From: a phage
DNA: 64,000 nucleotides
Strand: one strand, 5' to 3'
Sequence record: PZ402300.1
Shown in pieces: positions 33,471 to 64,000 of the stretch. The notes beneath the pieces were generated by a model. That model made no database searches. It was not told the DNA's origin and was given only the letters and a program-made list of their open reading frames with translations. Position 1 is the first letter of the stretch. Each line of letters begins with the position of its first letter. Position numbers and translations under genes: made by a program.

Positions 33471-33544
33471 TACCCACTACTGGATTTGAACCAGTGACCT
33501 TCCGATTATTAGTCGGTTGCTTTCCCCGTCTAAGCTAAGTGGGC
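33471..33544 (-). tRNA. tRNA, 74 nt, no encoded CCA; anticodon loop CUAAUAA (anticodon read as AAU)
   Basis: 7-bp acceptor stem, D-arm GCUU/AAGC, T-arm ACUGG-UUCAAAU-CCAGU folded by hand. Confidence 0.6.
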
Positions 33545-33549
33545 ATAAA

Positions 33550-33625
33550 TGGTTACCCGGACAGGATTCGAACCTGTGTCCTAGTTGGTTTACTAGTGGG
33601 GCTTTACCACTAAGCCTACCGGGTA
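33550..33625 (-). tRNA. tRNA-like gene with encoded CCA; anticodon arm atypical, isotype undetermined
   Basis: Perfect acceptor stem UACCCGG/CCGGGUA, D-arm GGCU/AGCC, T-arm ACAGG-UUCGAAU-CCUGU; anticodon stem is palindromic CUAG with 8-nt loop UAAACCAA. Confidence 0.5.
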
Positions 33626-60822: not shown

Positions 60823-61036
60823 AGCTATTTACACAGTAAATAGCAAAAGCTATCCATCCTGTCATTACAAAGCAACCAAGTGAGTATGCCCCATAGTAGT
60901 AGTAAGCAAACTTAGACTTGTGGGCACGGACTATTGTAGTCAGAACCAGTACAGATAAAGCTATCAGTATTAACTGAAAGATTACTTCAAAAGTGATTAG
61001 CATAGTTGCTACCTCCAAGCAAAAAATATGCCTCAC
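60821..61036 (-). CDS. small membrane protein
   Basis: Two hydrophobic helices in 71 aa. Confidence 0.35.
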   Translation of the reverse strand: MRHIFCLEVATMLITFEVIFQLILIALSVLVLTTIVRAHKSKFAYYYYGAYSLGCFVMTGWIAFAIYCVNS

Positions 61037-61053
61037 TCCCGAAGGAATGAGGC
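61017..61053 (-). terminator. terminator after RNA polymerase gene
   Basis: gcctcactcc/ggaatgaggc imperfect hairpin with U-run on minus strand. Confidence 0.55.
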
Positions 61054-61060
61054 TAGTTTA

Positions 61061-61248
61061 TTAACTTAATGCATAATCTGTTTCAAGGATGTCCTGCCAG
61101 AGGCTGTCATCCAGCTTACCAGCAGAGAACTCTTGTCCCAGTACCTGAGTCAGGATGAATCCCAGTAAGTCACTCTTAGCAATGTCAGACAGAATCTGAT
61201 TGTACTGACGACGCAGGTCATTACCGTAGTTAGGATGGCATCTAAAAC
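61061..61248 (-). CDS. T7-like single-subunit RNA polymerase, exon 3 (C-terminal 62 codons)
   Basis: Spliced reading gives ...HD-CFRCHPNYGNDL...DILETDYALS, aligning with the T7 RNAP C-terminus HDSFGTIP...DILESDFAFA. Confidence 0.55.
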
Positions 61249-62216
61249 CATTAGTTAAACGAGTCGTTAGCTCGCCCTTACCTTCCATGATTAACATGGA
61301 AGCCATACGTAGCATCTGCTTCTTTACGAGCAAGCATTGCCTCCTCAAGTGTGTCATACGTACCCAGACCGATCTGTTTACGATTGACTGTGATGTGTGC
61401 CTGGAATCTACCAGAAGGTAATATTCTTACACCATTCACTTTGCTTGATGTATTACGTGATAAACCCATATTCATCTGGTTCTGTCTACTGGTTACATTT
61501 CTCAGATTAGACCAACGGTTGTCGTTTCTAATGTGATTGATGTGATCCACCTGGTTAGGTGTTTCCCCTGTTTCCATTATCCAGATTATTCGATGCAGTA
61601 AGTACTCTTTACGACCCAGACTAACAGATAAATAGCCTTCTTTGTGAGGATACCCCACAATTGTTCCGGCTAATCCACTAGCAGAGTCGTAACGATGAGT
61701 TACTAGCCCACTTTCTCTGTCATACCGTAAAACCTTCTTCAAAGATTCTTGGGTAATAGTATCCAAGTCTTTTATCAGGTTCTTACAGGTAGGACATAGG
61801 TGGCCTATTGGACTCTTTTTAGCATCATAGAAGTTGCAAACAAACTCACTAGAGCATTGCTTACAACTACAGATAGCTGTGTACTTACCAGTTTTACGTA
61901 ATATTTGGGAGTTATCTAACATATGGATTCCTTAGTAATTTTGCATACAATTTCAGATTGTATCCTAACCAAGGAAGTAAGTCTCCAGTTTTCACTGGAG
62001 TATCGGACTATATCATCACCCACTAATCAGTGGGGCAAGGCGCTTGGGTGGTCACTTGACTCACCTACTCTACTCACATACGAAATGTTTTCGATAGTCT
62101 CTGAACCTTCCCTCATGGAGGGCTTGGCTGCTGATTGGCATATCCATAGGACTTAGCTTTCCAGCAATTCACCTTGTTTTCGACACGGATTACTCCGTGA
62201 AGGATCATTTATGTTT
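61249..62216 (-). mobile_element. group I intron 2 with HNH-AP2 homing endonuclease ORF
   Basis: P gaattgctggaaag 62170-62156, Q aatcagcagcc 62136-62126, R gttcagagactatcg 62106-62092, S gatgatatagtccga 62017-62003; ends in G; boundaries +/- a few nt. Confidence 0.65.
61278..61922 (-). CDS. HNH homing endonuclease with AP2-like DNA-binding domain (intron-encoded)
   Basis: HNH motif DHINHIRNDNRWSNLR; AP2-like GVRILPSGRFQAHITVNRKQIGLGTYDTLEEA. Confidence 0.75.
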   Translation of the reverse strand: MLDNSQILRKTGKYTAICSCKQCSSEFVCNFYDAKKSPIGHLCPTCKNLIKDLDTITQESLKKVLRYDRESGLVTHRYDSASGLAGTIVGYPHKEGYLSVSLGRKEYLLHRIIWIMETGETPNQVDHINHIRNDNRWSNLRNVTSRQNQMNMGLSRNTSSKVNGVRILPSGRFQAHITVNRKQIGLGTYDTLEEAMLARKEADATYGFHVNHGR

Positions 62217-62824
62217 AATCATGTACAGTCATTACAGGGAATGGCTTCTTAGGTAAAGTATTGAGCATAGTCAGGATTACATCTGTATCAACCAATGCAA
62301 TGGTTTCTGAGTCCAGATAATCAAAGATACGGGTAGACAGAAAGCCTGATTTCTCATAGCTAGCCCACAGTGTATTAACCGTTTCATGACTAGCACCAGG
62401 GACAACTATGTATTCACCAGTTCCTTCACAGAGGGACTTAATATAGTTCACCTGGTTCACGTTGAAGTTACAACGACGCAGCATCTCACGTACCACCATC
62501 CCATCAATAGAGTGAGTGATGTTAGCAGAGAGCATACGGGTCTTCTCTTCAGTACCCTGAACCATACGAGTGATGTCGAATGGCTTACCTAAGAAGTTAA
62601 CAGTCTGTACTTCAGGAACCATGACCTTAATGACAGCATGGAAGTTGTCAGGAAGTACCCATACGTAACGGTTAGCATCAGGATTACCACATTGCAGTAA
62701 GAACTTGTTAAGTGCCCAAGGACCACTAGCAACAGTTTCCATTACATTCTCAAAAGTCTTGAGACGAATACCTTCACCGAATACTTCTTTAGGCTTGGCT
62801 TCTGAGCCGTAGAATGCAGTCATA
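62217..62824 (-). CDS. T7-like single-subunit RNA polymerase, exon 2 (motif B to catalytic HD)
   Basis: MTAFYGS aligns with T7 MTLAYGS; ends PVMTVHD aligning with T7 FALIHD; UAA stop sits at the junction. Confidence 0.65.
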
Positions 62825-63631
62825 CATTATGTTCAAGGGAGGTCGTTAGTCTCCCCCAGCAGCTTTACCTGCATCTCACTGTTACCAGTGAGTTCGGACT
62901 ATATCATCTAGACTGATAGTCTAGCCGGGCGCTTCGACCCACTTGGGCCTACTCTACTAAGTTCAGCTTTCGCTGCTTTTCGATAGTCTCTGCACCTTTT
63001 GGTTATTCAAAACAGCATCACACATATCAATAAAGTCATTGGTTGAGAGGTCACCCTTTGCTCGGTTTACACACCAAGCTAACCATTGAACATTACCAAT
63101 ACTGTATCCTTTACTTGGTTCTATCTGATCTAGTGATAGACACAAAGGATGCCCCGATTCAATTACTAAGGTTGCTCCAGTTAAAGCACATTTAAATTCC
63201 TGTGATTTAAGGATTTCAAATAAATACTCTACTGTACAATCTGGCATAGGCTTACCAAACTTTTTACACCGACTTCTTGCATCCTTTAGTCTATGGGAGA
63301 CTGCGGAATACCATTTACGGTGTTCTTTTGGTATTGCTTTACGAACTCCAGTTCCATTGTAACCTGGGTTCTTTTTACGCCATTCACGAGCTACAGCAGC
63401 CTTACAGGGTCTGCAACGATTCTCGTAATTAGTTTTGAATCCTGTGAGTGATTTTTTAGTCTCTGGGAATACTTCGATAGGAAGTAATTTTTTACATCGA
63501 CTACATGTTTTGAATTCTGACATAGAATGCTCCTTATTGAACTTTCTACGCTACCAACTTGGCTCATGATTGTCCACTAGGGATGTTCCATGAGTTCACC
63601 CGGTTTTAAGGCCGCCATGACTTAAAGGTTA
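62825..63631 (-). mobile_element. group I intron 1 with HNH homing endonuclease ORF
   Basis: P1: exon AGGCCGU pairs with GCGGCCU (63615-63609); P10 GUCAU/AUGAC; P gaactcatgg, Q caatcatgagcc, R 62996-62981, S 62908-62894; last nt G. Confidence 0.7.
62963..63523 (-). CDS. HNH-family homing endonuclease (intron-encoded)
   Basis: N-terminal CxxC...CxxC; C-terminal SLDQI..GY..GNVQWLAWCVNRAK motif; AAGGAG RBS. Confidence 0.65.
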   Translation of the reverse strand: MSEFKTCSRCKKLLPIEVFPETKKSLTGFKTNYENRCRPCKAAVAREWRKKNPGYNGTGVRKAIPKEHRKWYSAVSHRLKDARSRCKKFGKPMPDCTVEYLFEILKSQEFKCALTGATLVIESGHPLCLSLDQIEPSKGYSIGNVQWLAWCVNRAKGDLSTNDFIDMCDAVLNNQKVQRLSKSSES

Positions 63632-64000
63632 ACGGCCTGCTTAGTGTCACTACGCTTAATACGTGATGCTTCACCAAGGATGTCCAGCATCTTGTGATAG
63701 ATAACTGTATAGGCATCACGGCGTAATGGCTTACCATTCTCATCCATGTAGTTAACTACGTTACACAGTTCAGCAGCAGAGCGGTCACCAGTCAGACAGG
63801 CCAGTAACTGTAAGCCTGATGATGTAGCATCCAGAGCTACAGCATAACCAATAGGCTTACCTGCTTTCATATCTTTCCATGCATTTACACCTGCAAAGAA
63901 CAGAGCAGAATCCTCTGCTTCATCTACCAGATTAAGCAGGTTAGCTTCATTCTCATCGAACCAGGCAATACGTTCATCCCATGTCTTTTTATCTAAGCCA
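63632..64000 (-). CDS. T7-like single-subunit RNA polymerase, exon 1 (partial; continues beyond window end)
   Basis: LDATSSGLQLLA aligns with T7 FDGSCSGIQHFSA; RSDTKQAV aligns with T7 RSVTKRSV. Confidence 0.65.

What the first reader, a model, noticed from the sequence alone, without database searches (positions are those of the whole stretch)
61249..62216. Intron 2: core precedes the HNH-AP2 endonuclease ORF; splice sites less certain
P, Q, R and S all lie in the first ~215 nt after the HD codons, and the 645-nt endonuclease ORF follows, ending ~28 nt before the proposed 3' splice site. The only G available for the guide sequence (GAUCC at 62206-62202) gives a short P1 with exon ...GAUU, so the 5' splice site is placed after 62217. 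Joining to 61248 yields HD-CFRCHP and restores frame, but P1 is only 4-5 bp.
Basis: partly seen in the sequence, partly recalled or inferred. Interest (0 to 1): 0.75.

Follow-up and report, generated by a model that had tools for sequence, protein, structure and literature searches.

The report
Self-splicing intron in phage RNA polymerase gene
A real, well-formed self-splicing group I intron carrying its own HNH homing-endonuclease gene interrupts the catalytic "HD" motif of the middle-gene RNA polymerase of an N4-like E. coli phage; the proposed splice sites are correct, and the element is an ordinary (though so far unannotated) example of a well-known kind of mobile phage intron.

Summary
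The finding holds. Window 62216..61249 (minus strand, 968 nt) is a group I intron (Rfam RF00028, 92.8 bits, E 1.5e-22) in the RNAP2 large-subunit gene of a G7C-like (Gamaleyavirus, Schitoviridae) phage. All core elements P1-P9, including P7.1 and P7.2 (IA-type), lie in the first 234 nt. A 214-aa HNH_3 + AP2-like endonuclease ORF follows, and 29 nt of tail end in the terminal G (61249). Seven intron-less relatives read ...VHD|CFRCHPNY without a gap at the proposed junction, so the splice sites are exact. The short P1 (4 exon bp plus 1 intron bp) is real. Among six homologous introns at this site the U·G wobble is invariant and three of the five P1 pairs change on both sides. The ORF sits in the loop of a long-range P9.1 helix whose 3' strand contains the ORF stop codon. 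A conserved terminal hairpin (P9.2) and (G)AAC..UG follow. The same intron is present in phages ZQ2 (99%) and Moonfish (94%), where it is annotated only as gene fragments. Relatives occupy the same site in Pseudomonas phage ZC08 and several metagenomic contigs, and a site 3 nt downstream in Erwinia phage MIF8. Verdict: new member of a known kind, modest interest.

The parts
62217..62824 (-). Exon 2 of the RNAP2 large-subunit gene (T7-RNAP motifs B' to C). It ends ...GTA CAT GAT T. The last four bases GAUU (62220-62217) form the exon strand of P1. U62217 with the first two intron bases forms an in-frame UAA.
   Evidence: blastn to G7C gp16 nt 423-1028; sequence; spliced translation
61249..62216 (-). 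Intron 2, a 968-nt group I intron (IA-type). The first base is A62216 and the terminal G is 61249.
   Evidence: Rfam RF00028 92.8 bits; junction fixed by 7 intron-less alleles; identical insertion in ZQ2 and Moonfish
61983..62216 (-). Ribozyme core: P1 loop and guide sequence UGAUC (62207-62203), P2 (62199-62184), P3, P4/P (62169-62161), P5 (62157-62138), Q (62136-62127), P6 (62127-62106), R/P7 (62106-62095), P7.1 (62094-62081), P7.2 (62065-62047), P3' (62040-62036), P8 (62034-62019), S/P7' (62016-62005), P9 (62000-61983).
   Evidence: cmscan alignment; coordinates; covariation with 97.1% of cells paired and 33 pairs changed on both sides, against 34-43% paired when partners are slid
61973..61981 (-). 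5' strand of the long-range P9.1 helix (CUUAC + UUCC), directly after P9.
   Evidence: Complementary to 61286-61277. Equivalent helices with different sequences occur in ZC08, MIF8, L079, L028 and (weakly) L073.
61928..61976 (-). Predicted hairpin in which UUCCUUGGU pairs with ACUAAGGAA, covering the Shine-Dalgarno sequence (AAGGA) of the endonuclease ORF.
   Evidence: RNAfold -15.0 kcal/mol. Analogous hairpins before the ORF in ZC08 and L073. This is inference only.
61278..61922 (-). Intron ORF of 214 aa: N-terminal four-Cys zinc ribbon, I-HmuI-like HNH_3 nuclease core, C-terminal AP2-like DNA-binding domain.
   Evidence: the ORF listing; Pfam HNH_3 1e-15 and AP2 1.4e-4; phrog_99 1e-58; profile hits I-HmuI 1U3E at 2.5e-4 and plant ERF AP2 at 0.006; invariant residues; 37 synonymous against 13 non-synonymous codon differences versus Moonfish
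61277..61286 (-). 3' strand of P9.1 (GGAAG GUAAG). It contains the ORF stop codon UAA (61280-61278).
61258..61276 (-). Terminal hairpin P9.2 (GGCGAG-CUAACGA-CUCGUU) with the family-conserved loop (C/G)UA(A/G)CG.
   Evidence: The same hairpin, with covarying stems, occurs in ZC08, MIF8, L073, L079, L028, window intron 1 and the ORF-less relatives L038, L039, L053, L060 and L085.
61249..61257 (-). 3' tail UAACUAAUG ending in the terminal G 61249. It matches the family consensus (G)AAC..N..UG| at a fixed 8-10 nt after P9.2.
61061..61248 (-). Exon 3 (CFRCHPNY...DYALS, stop). Its first four bases GUUU (61248-61245) can pair with intron AAAU (62210-62207) as a 4-bp P10.
   Evidence: blastn to G7C gp16 nt 1039-1218; translation; P10 by inspection
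61030..61053 (-). Intrinsic-terminator-like hairpin directly after the RNAP2 stop codon.
62825..63631 (-). Context: intron 1 of the same gene (807 nt). An endonuclease VII/HNH-like ORF (63523-62963) splits its core. It shares the P9.2 hairpin and ..AAUG| 3' end with intron 2.
   Evidence: Rfam sub-threshold halves of 36.1 and 16.7 bits; phrog_1035 1e-31; exon blastn

Best explanation
Window 62216..61249 (-) is a mobile, self-splicing group I intron of the IA type with P7.1 and P7.2. It sits in the gene for the large subunit of the phage's middle-gene RNA polymerase (N4 RNAPII type, homologous to the C-terminal half of T7 RNAP). It lies between the first and second base of the Cys codon that follows the catalytic His-Asp of motif C. 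Steps shown: the ribozyme core is intact and under structural constraint, and the splice junctions are exact. Steps inferred from established group I chemistry: the 5' exon end GAUU pairs with the guide sequence GAUC, giving a U·G wobble at the cleavage site. An exogenous guanosine attacks after U62217. The 3' exon start GUUU is held by a short P10. The terminal G61249 enters the G-binding site in P7, and the exons are ligated to give ...VHD-CFRCHPNY.... The 3' splice site lies about 730 nt from the core. It is brought back by a long-range P9.1 helix that closes around the endonuclease ORF, followed by the conserved P9.2 hairpin and the (G)AAC..UG tail. This layout resembles that of the T4 nrdD (sunY) intron, as I recall it. 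Ribosomes reading exon 2 stop at a UAA that spans the 5' splice site. The ORF encodes an I-HmuI-like HNH nuclease with a zinc ribbon and an AP2-like DNA-binding domain. It most likely cuts or nicks intron-less RNAP2 alleles (...CAT GAC TGC TTC CGT...) in mixed infections, so that repair copies in the intron and flanking exon bases (homing). The ORF stop codon lies inside P9.1 and its Shine-Dalgarno sequence lies in a predicted hairpin, so translation of the endonuclease and splicing are probably mutually antagonistic. That last point is inference.
For: Rfam RF00028 full-length hit, 92.8 bits, E 1.5e-22. Six homologous introns at this RNAP2 site give 97.1% paired cells and 33 of 65 pairs with changes on both sides. 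In 0 of 500 shuffles was this reached, and slid controls gave 34-43% paired. P1 has UG in 6 of 6 sequences and three covarying pairs. The exon/guide pairs are GAUU/GAUC, GACU/GGUC and GCGU/GCGC. Seven intron-less Gamaleyavirus alleles are colinear at the junction. Three synonymous changes (-2, +2, +5) are strictly linked to intron presence. Splicing both introns gives a gapless 388-column alignment to G7C gp16 with 357 identities. The long-range P9.1 recurs with unrelated sequences: ZC08 7 bp, MIF8 7 bp, L079 12 bp, L028 7 bp, window 5+4 bp. P9.2 and the tail are conserved in ORF-containing and ORF-less relatives. Between the window and Moonfish, the first 294 nt (ribozyme and pre-ORF leader) differ at 3 of 294 positions and the tail at 0 of 29, against 51 of 645 in the ORF. 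The ORF differences are 37 synonymous and 13 non-synonymous codons. For the ORF: HNH_3 1e-15, phrog_99 1e-58, I-HmuI 2.5e-4. The distribution is patchy: 3 intron-containing records among 64 related phage records.
Against: No RNA or biochemical data exist, so splicing and endonuclease activity are inferred. P1 (4+1 bp) and P10 (4 bp) are short. The window's own P9.1 is interrupted by a bulge, and its 5-bp Watson-Crick run is not unusual on its own (0.19 of random ORF 16-mers reach it). L073 has only 4 bp there. The AP2 match is below Pfam's threshold. In the window, ZQ2 and Moonfish, but not in other lineages, the exon-3 frame is open for 59 codons upstream of the 3' splice site and contains start codons.
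Confidence: 0.93

Rival explanations
1. Gene in pieces. A free-standing HNH endonuclease gene cassette split RNAP2. The fragments (ending ...VHD and starting before CFRCH) are translated separately and assemble without RNA splicing, as in the Aeh1 nrdA case cited in PMC5418858.
For: GenBank annotators of ZQ2 and Moonfish called separate 'RNA polymerase' CDSs. The ZC08 paper described the element only as a homing-endonuclease insertion in RNAP2. In the window the exon-3 frame is open upstream and contains ATG/TTG codons, one preceded by GAGGAGG.
Against: A complete, covarying group I ribozyme flanks the ORF. The insertion splits a codon (T|GT) directly after the catalytic Asp. ZC08, MIF8 and L073 have no in-frame start upstream of exon 3. 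The ribozyme is far more conserved than the ORF.
Confidence: 0.03
2. Decayed intron. The ribozyme no longer self-splices efficiently and needs a host or phage factor, or the endonuclease is inactive, so the element is a fixed relic rather than a mobile intron.
For: P1 and P10 are short. There are no functional data. The window's P9.1 is imperfect.
Against: All Rfam core positions are matched. The ORF is intact in five lineages, with invariant HNH and zinc-ribbon residues and an excess of synonymous change. RNAP2 makes the middle transcripts in N4-like phages (annotation of G7C gp15 and gp16), so a non-splicing intron should be lethal. Intron-containing and intron-less alleles coexist among phages about 93% identical, which suggests recent mobility.
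Confidence: 0.04
3. The intron is real but is spliced at other sites than 62217/61248.
Against: Shifting either junction by one base changes the ligated sequence, and only this join was found to reproduce the HDCFRCHPNY of intron-less alleles. U·G is invariant in six homologues. The terminal G lies at the family-conserved distance after P9.2.
Confidence: 0.01

Closest known systems
T4 nrdD (sunY) group I intron with ORF I-TevIII region; Michel et al. 1992, Genes Dev, 'Activation of the catalytic core of a group I intron by a remote 3' splice junction' (from my own knowledge, not read here)
   Same: A phage IA-type intron. The whole catalytic core precedes a long ORF placed in the P9.1 region. 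The 3' splice site lies hundreds of nucleotides downstream and is tied back by long-range pairing and a 3'-terminal domain.
   Different: The host gene differs (RNA polymerase, not anaerobic ribonucleotide reductase) and so does the ORF. The pairing partners were inferred here from covariation, not tested.
SPO1 DNA-polymerase intron encoding I-HmuI (PDB 1U3E)
   Same: A phage group I intron in a polymerase gene that encodes an HNH enzyme. A profile of the five intron ORFs hits I-HmuI at E 2.5e-4 over positions 87-169.
   Different: I-HmuI lacks the N-terminal zinc ribbon and the AP2-like C-terminal domain. The host is a Bacillus phage and the target is a DNA polymerase. Similarity is remote.
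HNH-AP2 homing endonuclease genes of T4-related and Xanthomonas phages (PMC2993671 Table 5; PMC2248197)
   Same: The same domain combination (HNH nuclease plus AP2-like DNA-binding domain) in phage mobile-element genes.
   Different: In PMC2993671 Table 5 those genes are counted in a column separate from the intron-encoded ones. Here the gene sits in the P9.1 loop of a group I intron. The AP2 match here is sub-threshold.
PhiPA3 intron endonuclease gp210 (Birkholz et al. 2024, PMC11620839)
   Same: An intron-encoded HNH endonuclease in a phage, where the enzyme attacks the intron-less allele of a co-infecting relative.
   Different: That is a jumbo phage. Competition was shown experimentally there and is only conjectured here.
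The same intron in Escherichia phage vB_EcoP-ZQ2 (NC_070874) and Shigella phage Moonfish (PQ613263); homologues in Pseudomonas phage ZC08 and Erwinia phage MIF8
   Same: ZQ2 is 99% and Moonfish 94.4% identical over all 968 nt at the identical site. ZC08 has the same site and architecture. MIF8 has the same architecture.
   Different: None of these records annotates an intron. The MIF8 copy lies 3 nt downstream. The window phage additionally carries intron 1.

Membership tests
Group I intron (Rfam RF00028) | Conserved catalytic core P3-P9 with P, Q, R, S elements and the P3/P7 pseudoknot | tested here: met
   Full-length cmscan hit, 92.8 bits against a gathering score of 50, E 1.5e-22. Covariation across 13 helices.
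Group I intron (Rfam RF00028) | P1 formed by the 5' exon end and an internal guide sequence, with a U·G wobble at the cleavage site | tested here: met
   GAUU|A pairs with UGAUC. UG in 6 of 6 homologues, 5 pairs 100% paired, 3 with changes on both sides.
Group I intron (Rfam RF00028) | Intron ends in a guanosine (omega-G) that precedes the 3' exon | tested here: met
   G at 61249. All homologues end ..UG| at 8-10 nt after P9.2.
Group I intron (Rfam RF00028) | Exon ligation restores an uninterrupted, conserved reading frame | tested here: met
   HD|CFRCHPNY is identical to 7 intron-less alleles. Gapless 388-column alignment to G7C gp16.
Group I intron (Rfam RF00028) | P10 pairing between the guide region and the start of the 3' exon | tested here: inconclusive
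   Only 4 bp in the window (GUUU/AAAU) and 3-4 bp in ZC08, L073 and MIF8. Position +1 pairs G·U or G-C with the same base that pairs with intron base 1. Too short for a statistical test.
Group I intron (Rfam RF00028) | Guanosine-dependent self-splicing of the RNA | not testable with these tools
   Needs in vitro transcription and splicing, or RT-PCR from infected cells.
Subgroup IA (phage-type, P7.1/P7.2) | Extra helices P7.1 and P7.2 between P7 and P3' | tested here: met
   A 50-nt insertion at that place in the cmscan alignment. Helices 10 and 11 show 4 of 4 and 6 of 7 pairs changed on both sides.
HNH homing endonuclease (I-HmuI-like, Pfam HNH_3) | HNH_3 nuclease motif | tested here: met
   HNH_3 E 1e-15, 57.5 bits against a cut-off of 24.8. 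Five of 5 homologues match. phrog_99 1e-58. I-HmuI 1U3E E 2.5e-4.
HNH homing endonuclease (I-HmuI-like, Pfam HNH_3) | Encoded within a self-splicing element, with patchy presence among close relatives | tested here: met
   The ORF lies in L9.1 of the intron. There are 3 intron-containing records among 64 related phage records.
HNH homing endonuclease (I-HmuI-like, Pfam HNH_3) | Cleaves or nicks the intron-less allele near the insertion site | not testable with these tools
   Needs a cleavage assay on the G7C-type target ...CATGACTGCTTCCGT....
HNH-AP2 subclass | AP2/ERF-type DNA-binding domain C-terminal to HNH | tested here: inconclusive
   Pfam AP2 22.5 bits, below the cut-off of 33.3. Three of 5 homologues match at E<=0.01, best 8.3e-6. 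The profile hits plant ERF096 at E 0.0058. Consistent but sub-threshold; no structure was predicted.

The most novel reading that the evidence does not exclude
The two catalytic motifs of the RNAPII large-subunit gene may be recurrent landing sites for intron and endonuclease elements across N4-like phages of Escherichia, Shigella, Pseudomonas, Erwinia and Burkholderia. The HNH-AP2 enzyme of intron 2 may act as a weapon that disables the middle-transcription polymerase gene of co-infecting intron-less relatives, in the manner of PhiPA3 gp210. Placing its stop codon inside P9.1 and its Shine-Dalgarno sequence in a hairpin would make endonuclease translation and splicing mutually exclusive, which would time nuclease production. 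The 3-nt site shift in MIF8 would then record retargeting of the same element to the nearest U when the Cys codon is replaced by Ala.
Probability: 0.25. Interest if true: 0.55.

Novelty: new member of a known kind. Interest (0 to 1): 0.3.

Why it matters
The practical value is correct annotation. The RNAP2 gene of this phage, and of ZQ2, Moonfish, ZC08 and MIF8, is one spliced gene, not three ORFs. The 81-aa 'RNA polymerase' CDS in the GenBank records is an artefact. Biologically, the finding adds the single-subunit-type RNA polymerase of N4-like phages to the list of essential phage genes invaded at catalytic motifs by group I introns. It also gives a clean natural set of intron-containing and intron-less alleles at about 93% identity, with intron-linked synonymous flank changes. 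That set could be used to test homing, co-conversion and inter-phage competition in an easily grown E. coli phage. It does not reveal a new mechanism.

Tried and rejected
(1) I looked for a base-pairing partner of the conserved P9.2 loop (C/G)UA(A/G)CG elsewhere in the intron. L8 is complementary in ZC08 (7 bp) and partly in the window. MIF8 and L073 have no equivalent, so no conserved tertiary pairing could be established. (2) I first read the conserved GGUUAGG before the ORF as the partner of the P9.2 loop. It is better explained as the 5' strand of a local hairpin covering the ORF's ribosome-binding site. (3) The hairpin CUUCCAUG/CAUGGAAG at the ORF 3' end is not conserved in ZC08 and is a by-product of the FHxNHG codons, so I rejected it as a structural element. 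(4) P9.0 pairing between J7/9 and the bases before the terminal G was not consistent between the window and ZC08, and I left it unassigned. (5) Literature searches for a described group I intron in RNAP2 of N4-like, Schitoviridae or Gamaleyavirus phages found none. PMC5418858 noted only an endonuclease insertion in ZC08 RNAP2, and PMC5746245 describes a td intron in a Vibrio N4-like phage. (6) The sigma-70 promoter scan found nothing convincing in front of the ORF. (7) I did not classify the host genes of the other 68 IMG/VR contigs that share the 22-mer.

Full report
**What is there.** The 3' end of the window, read on the minus strand, carries the gene for the large subunit of the middle-gene RNA polymerase (RNAP2) of an N4-like phage. 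Megablast of 61000-64000 finds 64 phage records, nearly all Escherichia and Shigella Gamaleyavirus (G7C-like Schitoviridae). Most of them match in three pieces that add up to the roughly 1.2-kb uninterrupted gene. G7C gp16 (405 aa) aligns to the window in three blocks: 63993-63630, 62824-62219 and 61240-61061. Another 24-kb stretch of the window is about 93% identical to the nearest phages, PD38 and Bp4. The source is therefore a distinct Gamaleyavirus.

**Check of the observation.** Rfam's group I intron model matches 62226..61983 (-) over its full length at 92.8 bits. The gathering score is 50, and E is 1.5e-22 for the whole window, both strands, against all 4227 families.
- P, Q, R and S fall at intron positions 48-56, 81-90, 111-122 and 201-212, and P9 ends at position 234.
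- A 50-nt insertion between P7 and P3' forms P7.1 and P7.2, the hallmark of IA-type phage introns.
- The ORF 61922..61278 has 214 codons. It matches HNH_3 at E 1e-15 and AP2 at E 1.4e-4, the latter below Pfam's cut-off.
- Its stop codon is followed by 29 nt up to G61249.

**Splice sites.** Seven intron-less alleles (G7C, HK2, 24-32N, PhAPEC5, SP5M, Bas96, St11Ph5) read GAC T|GC TTC CGT, the same protein with no gap. The three intron-containing alleles (window, ZQ2, Moonfish) read GAT T|GT TTT. The bases on either side of each junction differ, so shifting either junction changes the ligated sequence. Removing this intron and the upstream one yields 387 codons plus the stop. These align without gaps to G7C gp16 residues 19-405 and its stop, with 357 of 388 columns identical.

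**P1 is short but real.** I found the same intron lineage at this RNAP2 site in several other places.
- Pseudomonas phage ZC08 and Erwinia phage MIF8 carry it.
- A search for the core 22-mer GGTGAATTGCTGGAAAGCTAAG found four further IMG/VR contigs, L054, L064, L073 and L074.
- The exon/guide pairs are GAUU/GAUC (window, L054), GACU/GGUC (ZC08, L073, L064) and GCGU/GCGC (MIF8).

On an alignment of six of these sequences, RNAalifold recovers P1 to P9. Of 60 predicted pairs, 33 show changes on both sides. With P7 added, 97.1% of cells are paired. Slid controls give 34-43%, and none of 500 shuffles reaches any observed measure. In P1 the U·G is invariant (6 of 6), all five pairs are always formed, and three of them covary.

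The three synonymous differences strictly linked to the intron (-2 C to U, +2 C to U, +5 C to U) make the exon fit the window's guide sequence (U-A at -2) and a 4-bp P10 (GUUU with AAAU, 62210-62207). They are what co-conversion during homing would leave. In every lineage the last exon U and the first two intron bases form an in-frame stop (UAA or UGA), so ribosomes halt at the intron border.

**How the distant 3' splice site is defined.** ORF-less relatives in IMG/VR (L038, L039, L053, L060, L085) share one layout. After P9 comes a small P9.1 hairpin with a GAAA loop. Then comes a terminal hairpin with loop (C/G)UA(A/G)CG, then (G)AAC…UG|. In the ORF-containing introns the terminal hairpin and tail are retained next to the 3' splice site:
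- window: GGCGAG-CUAACGA-CUCGUU, then UAACUAAUG|.

The bases just after P9 are complementary to the bases just before that hairpin:
- ZC08: CUACCUG/CAGGUAG
- MIF8: CUUCAUG/CAUGAAG
- L079: a perfect 12-mer
- L028: UGCGAGC/GCUCGCA
- window: CUUAC/GUAAG plus UUCC/GGAA across a one-base bulge
- L073: only CUUC/GAAG.

Few random 16-mers from the same ORF reach the observed Watson-Crick run. The fractions are 0.015 for ZC08, 0.018 for MIF8, and none of 20,000 for L079 and L028. The window's longest run alone is unremarkable at 0.19. Mini-constructs with the ORF removed fold into P9 / P9.1 / P9.2 / single-stranded tail in all five RNAP2 lineages.

The ORF therefore occupies the loop of P9.1, and its stop codon lies inside the 3' strand of that helix. 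I recall the same layout for the T4 nrdD (sunY) intron. That recollection is a lead from memory, not a test.

**The intron and its ORF are both under selection.** Window and Moonfish differ at 3 of 294 positions in the first 294 nt (ribozyme and pre-ORF leader) and at 0 of 29 in the tail. One of the three differences turns a P9 G-C pair into G·U. The ORF differs at 51 of 645 positions, as 37 synonymous and 13 non-synonymous codon changes.

The five orthologous ORFs are 43-51% identical between lineages. They keep four N-terminal cysteines (a zinc ribbon) and the HNH residues. A profile of them hits the SPO1 intron nickase I-HmuI (1U3E, E 2.5e-4) and plant ERF AP2 domains (E 0.006). AP2 is found at E<=0.01 in three of five members. 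HNH-AP2 genes are a recognised class of phage homing-endonuclease genes. The 'HNH' part is solid. The 'AP2' part is likely but sub-threshold.

**Rival: exon 3 as a separate protein.** ZQ2 and Moonfish are annotated that way, with an 81-aa CDS starting inside the HNH ORF. The window has the corresponding open frame with start codons. In ZC08, MIF8 and L073 the frame is closed 3-10 codons upstream of the splice site and has no start codon. Combined with the intact ribozyme and a split codon next to the catalytic Asp, this makes a genes-in-pieces arrangement very unlikely.

**Other points.**
- A predicted hairpin pairs UUCCUU with the ORF's AAGGAA ribosome-binding site. This may limit endonuclease translation, but it is inference.
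- No terminator lies inside the intron on the coding strand. One follows the gene at 61053-61030.

**Comparison and novelty.** This is a textbook mobile group I intron with an HNH homing endonuclease at a catalytic motif of an essential phage gene. Its sequence is already public in ZQ2 (99%) and Moonfish (94.4%), but without intron annotation. The ZC08 paper noticed an endonuclease 'insertion' in RNAP2 without recognising a ribozyme. I found no paper that describes a group I intron in the RNAP2 gene of N4-like phages. I file it as a new member of a known kind, with interest about 0.3.

The most novel tenable reading is that the endonuclease is used for interference competition between co-infecting N4-like phages, as shown for PhiPA3 gp210. 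It would also include coupling between ORF translation and P9.1 formation. This reading is untested.

Noticed in passing
window 62825-63631 (-): Intron 1 of the same gene, 807 nt. The 5' exon ends ..GCCGU (63632) and pairs with the guide sequence GCGGC. The terminal G is at 62825. It lies between KQAV and MTAFYG (T7-RNAP motif B region). An endonuclease VII/HNH-like ORF (63523-62963, phrog_1035 1e-31) splits the ribozyme core, so Rfam sees only sub-threshold halves of 36.1 and 16.7 bits. It shares the P9.2 hairpin (loop ACUAACGAC) and the ..AACAUAAUG| end with intron 2. The nearest DNA relatives are in RNAP2 of Burkholderia N4-like phages HN02, HN04 and HN05 (73%), with none in E. coli phages of the collection.
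   Followed up: partly
L004 (Erwinia phage MIF8) 2490-3451: The same intron lineage (78.6% identity in the core, orthologous ORF) sits 3 nt downstream of the window's site: GAT GCG T|TC GGT, giving HDA-FGCH. Intron-less phage EK8 reads GAT GCG TTT GGT. That lineage has Ala (GCG) where the window has Cys (UGU), so the window's position has no U to form the U·G pair. The intron follows the next available U.
   Followed up: yes
L073 2488-5550 and L074 (IMG/VR contigs 3300011253_000949 and 3300011254_000585): These metagenomic N4-like contigs have RNAP2 interrupted at both of the sites used in the window: after aa 143 and after the HD motif.
   Followed up: partly
L013-L085 (73 IMG/VR contigs): The exact 22-mer GGTGAATTGCTGGAAAGCTAAG (P3/P4/P5 of intron 2) occurs in 73 viral contigs, and only 5 of these are in RNAP2. 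Blastn also links the core to introns in Felixounavirus DNA polymerase genes. The ribozyme lineage is widespread in other phage genes, both with and without ORFs.
   Followed up: partly
window 62218, 61247, 61244 (and 61243, 61241): Synonymous exon differences are strictly linked to intron presence. The three intron-containing alleles have GAT T|GT TTT and the seven intron-less alleles have GAC T|GC TTC. The window and ZQ2 also have AGA instead of CGT. This is consistent with co-conversion, or with adaptation to P1/P10 and endonuclease immunity.
   Followed up: yes
L001 3381-3626 and L002 1380-1625: The GenBank records of Moonfish and ZQ2 annotate exon 3 as an 81-aa 'RNA polymerase' CDS that starts inside the HNH ORF in another frame, and exon 2 as a truncated polymerase. 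These are annotation artefacts of an unrecognised intron.
   Followed up: yes
window 33471-33625 (-): Two adjacent tRNA genes (Rfam tRNA, 64.8 and 42.0 bits).
   Followed up: no
relatives of window 36000-60000 (e.g. Bp4 NC_024142): In several related phages DNA polymerase and DNA primase are annotated as two CDSs each. These may be further split or intron-containing genes. Rfam found no other intron in the window at the gathering threshold.
   Followed up: no
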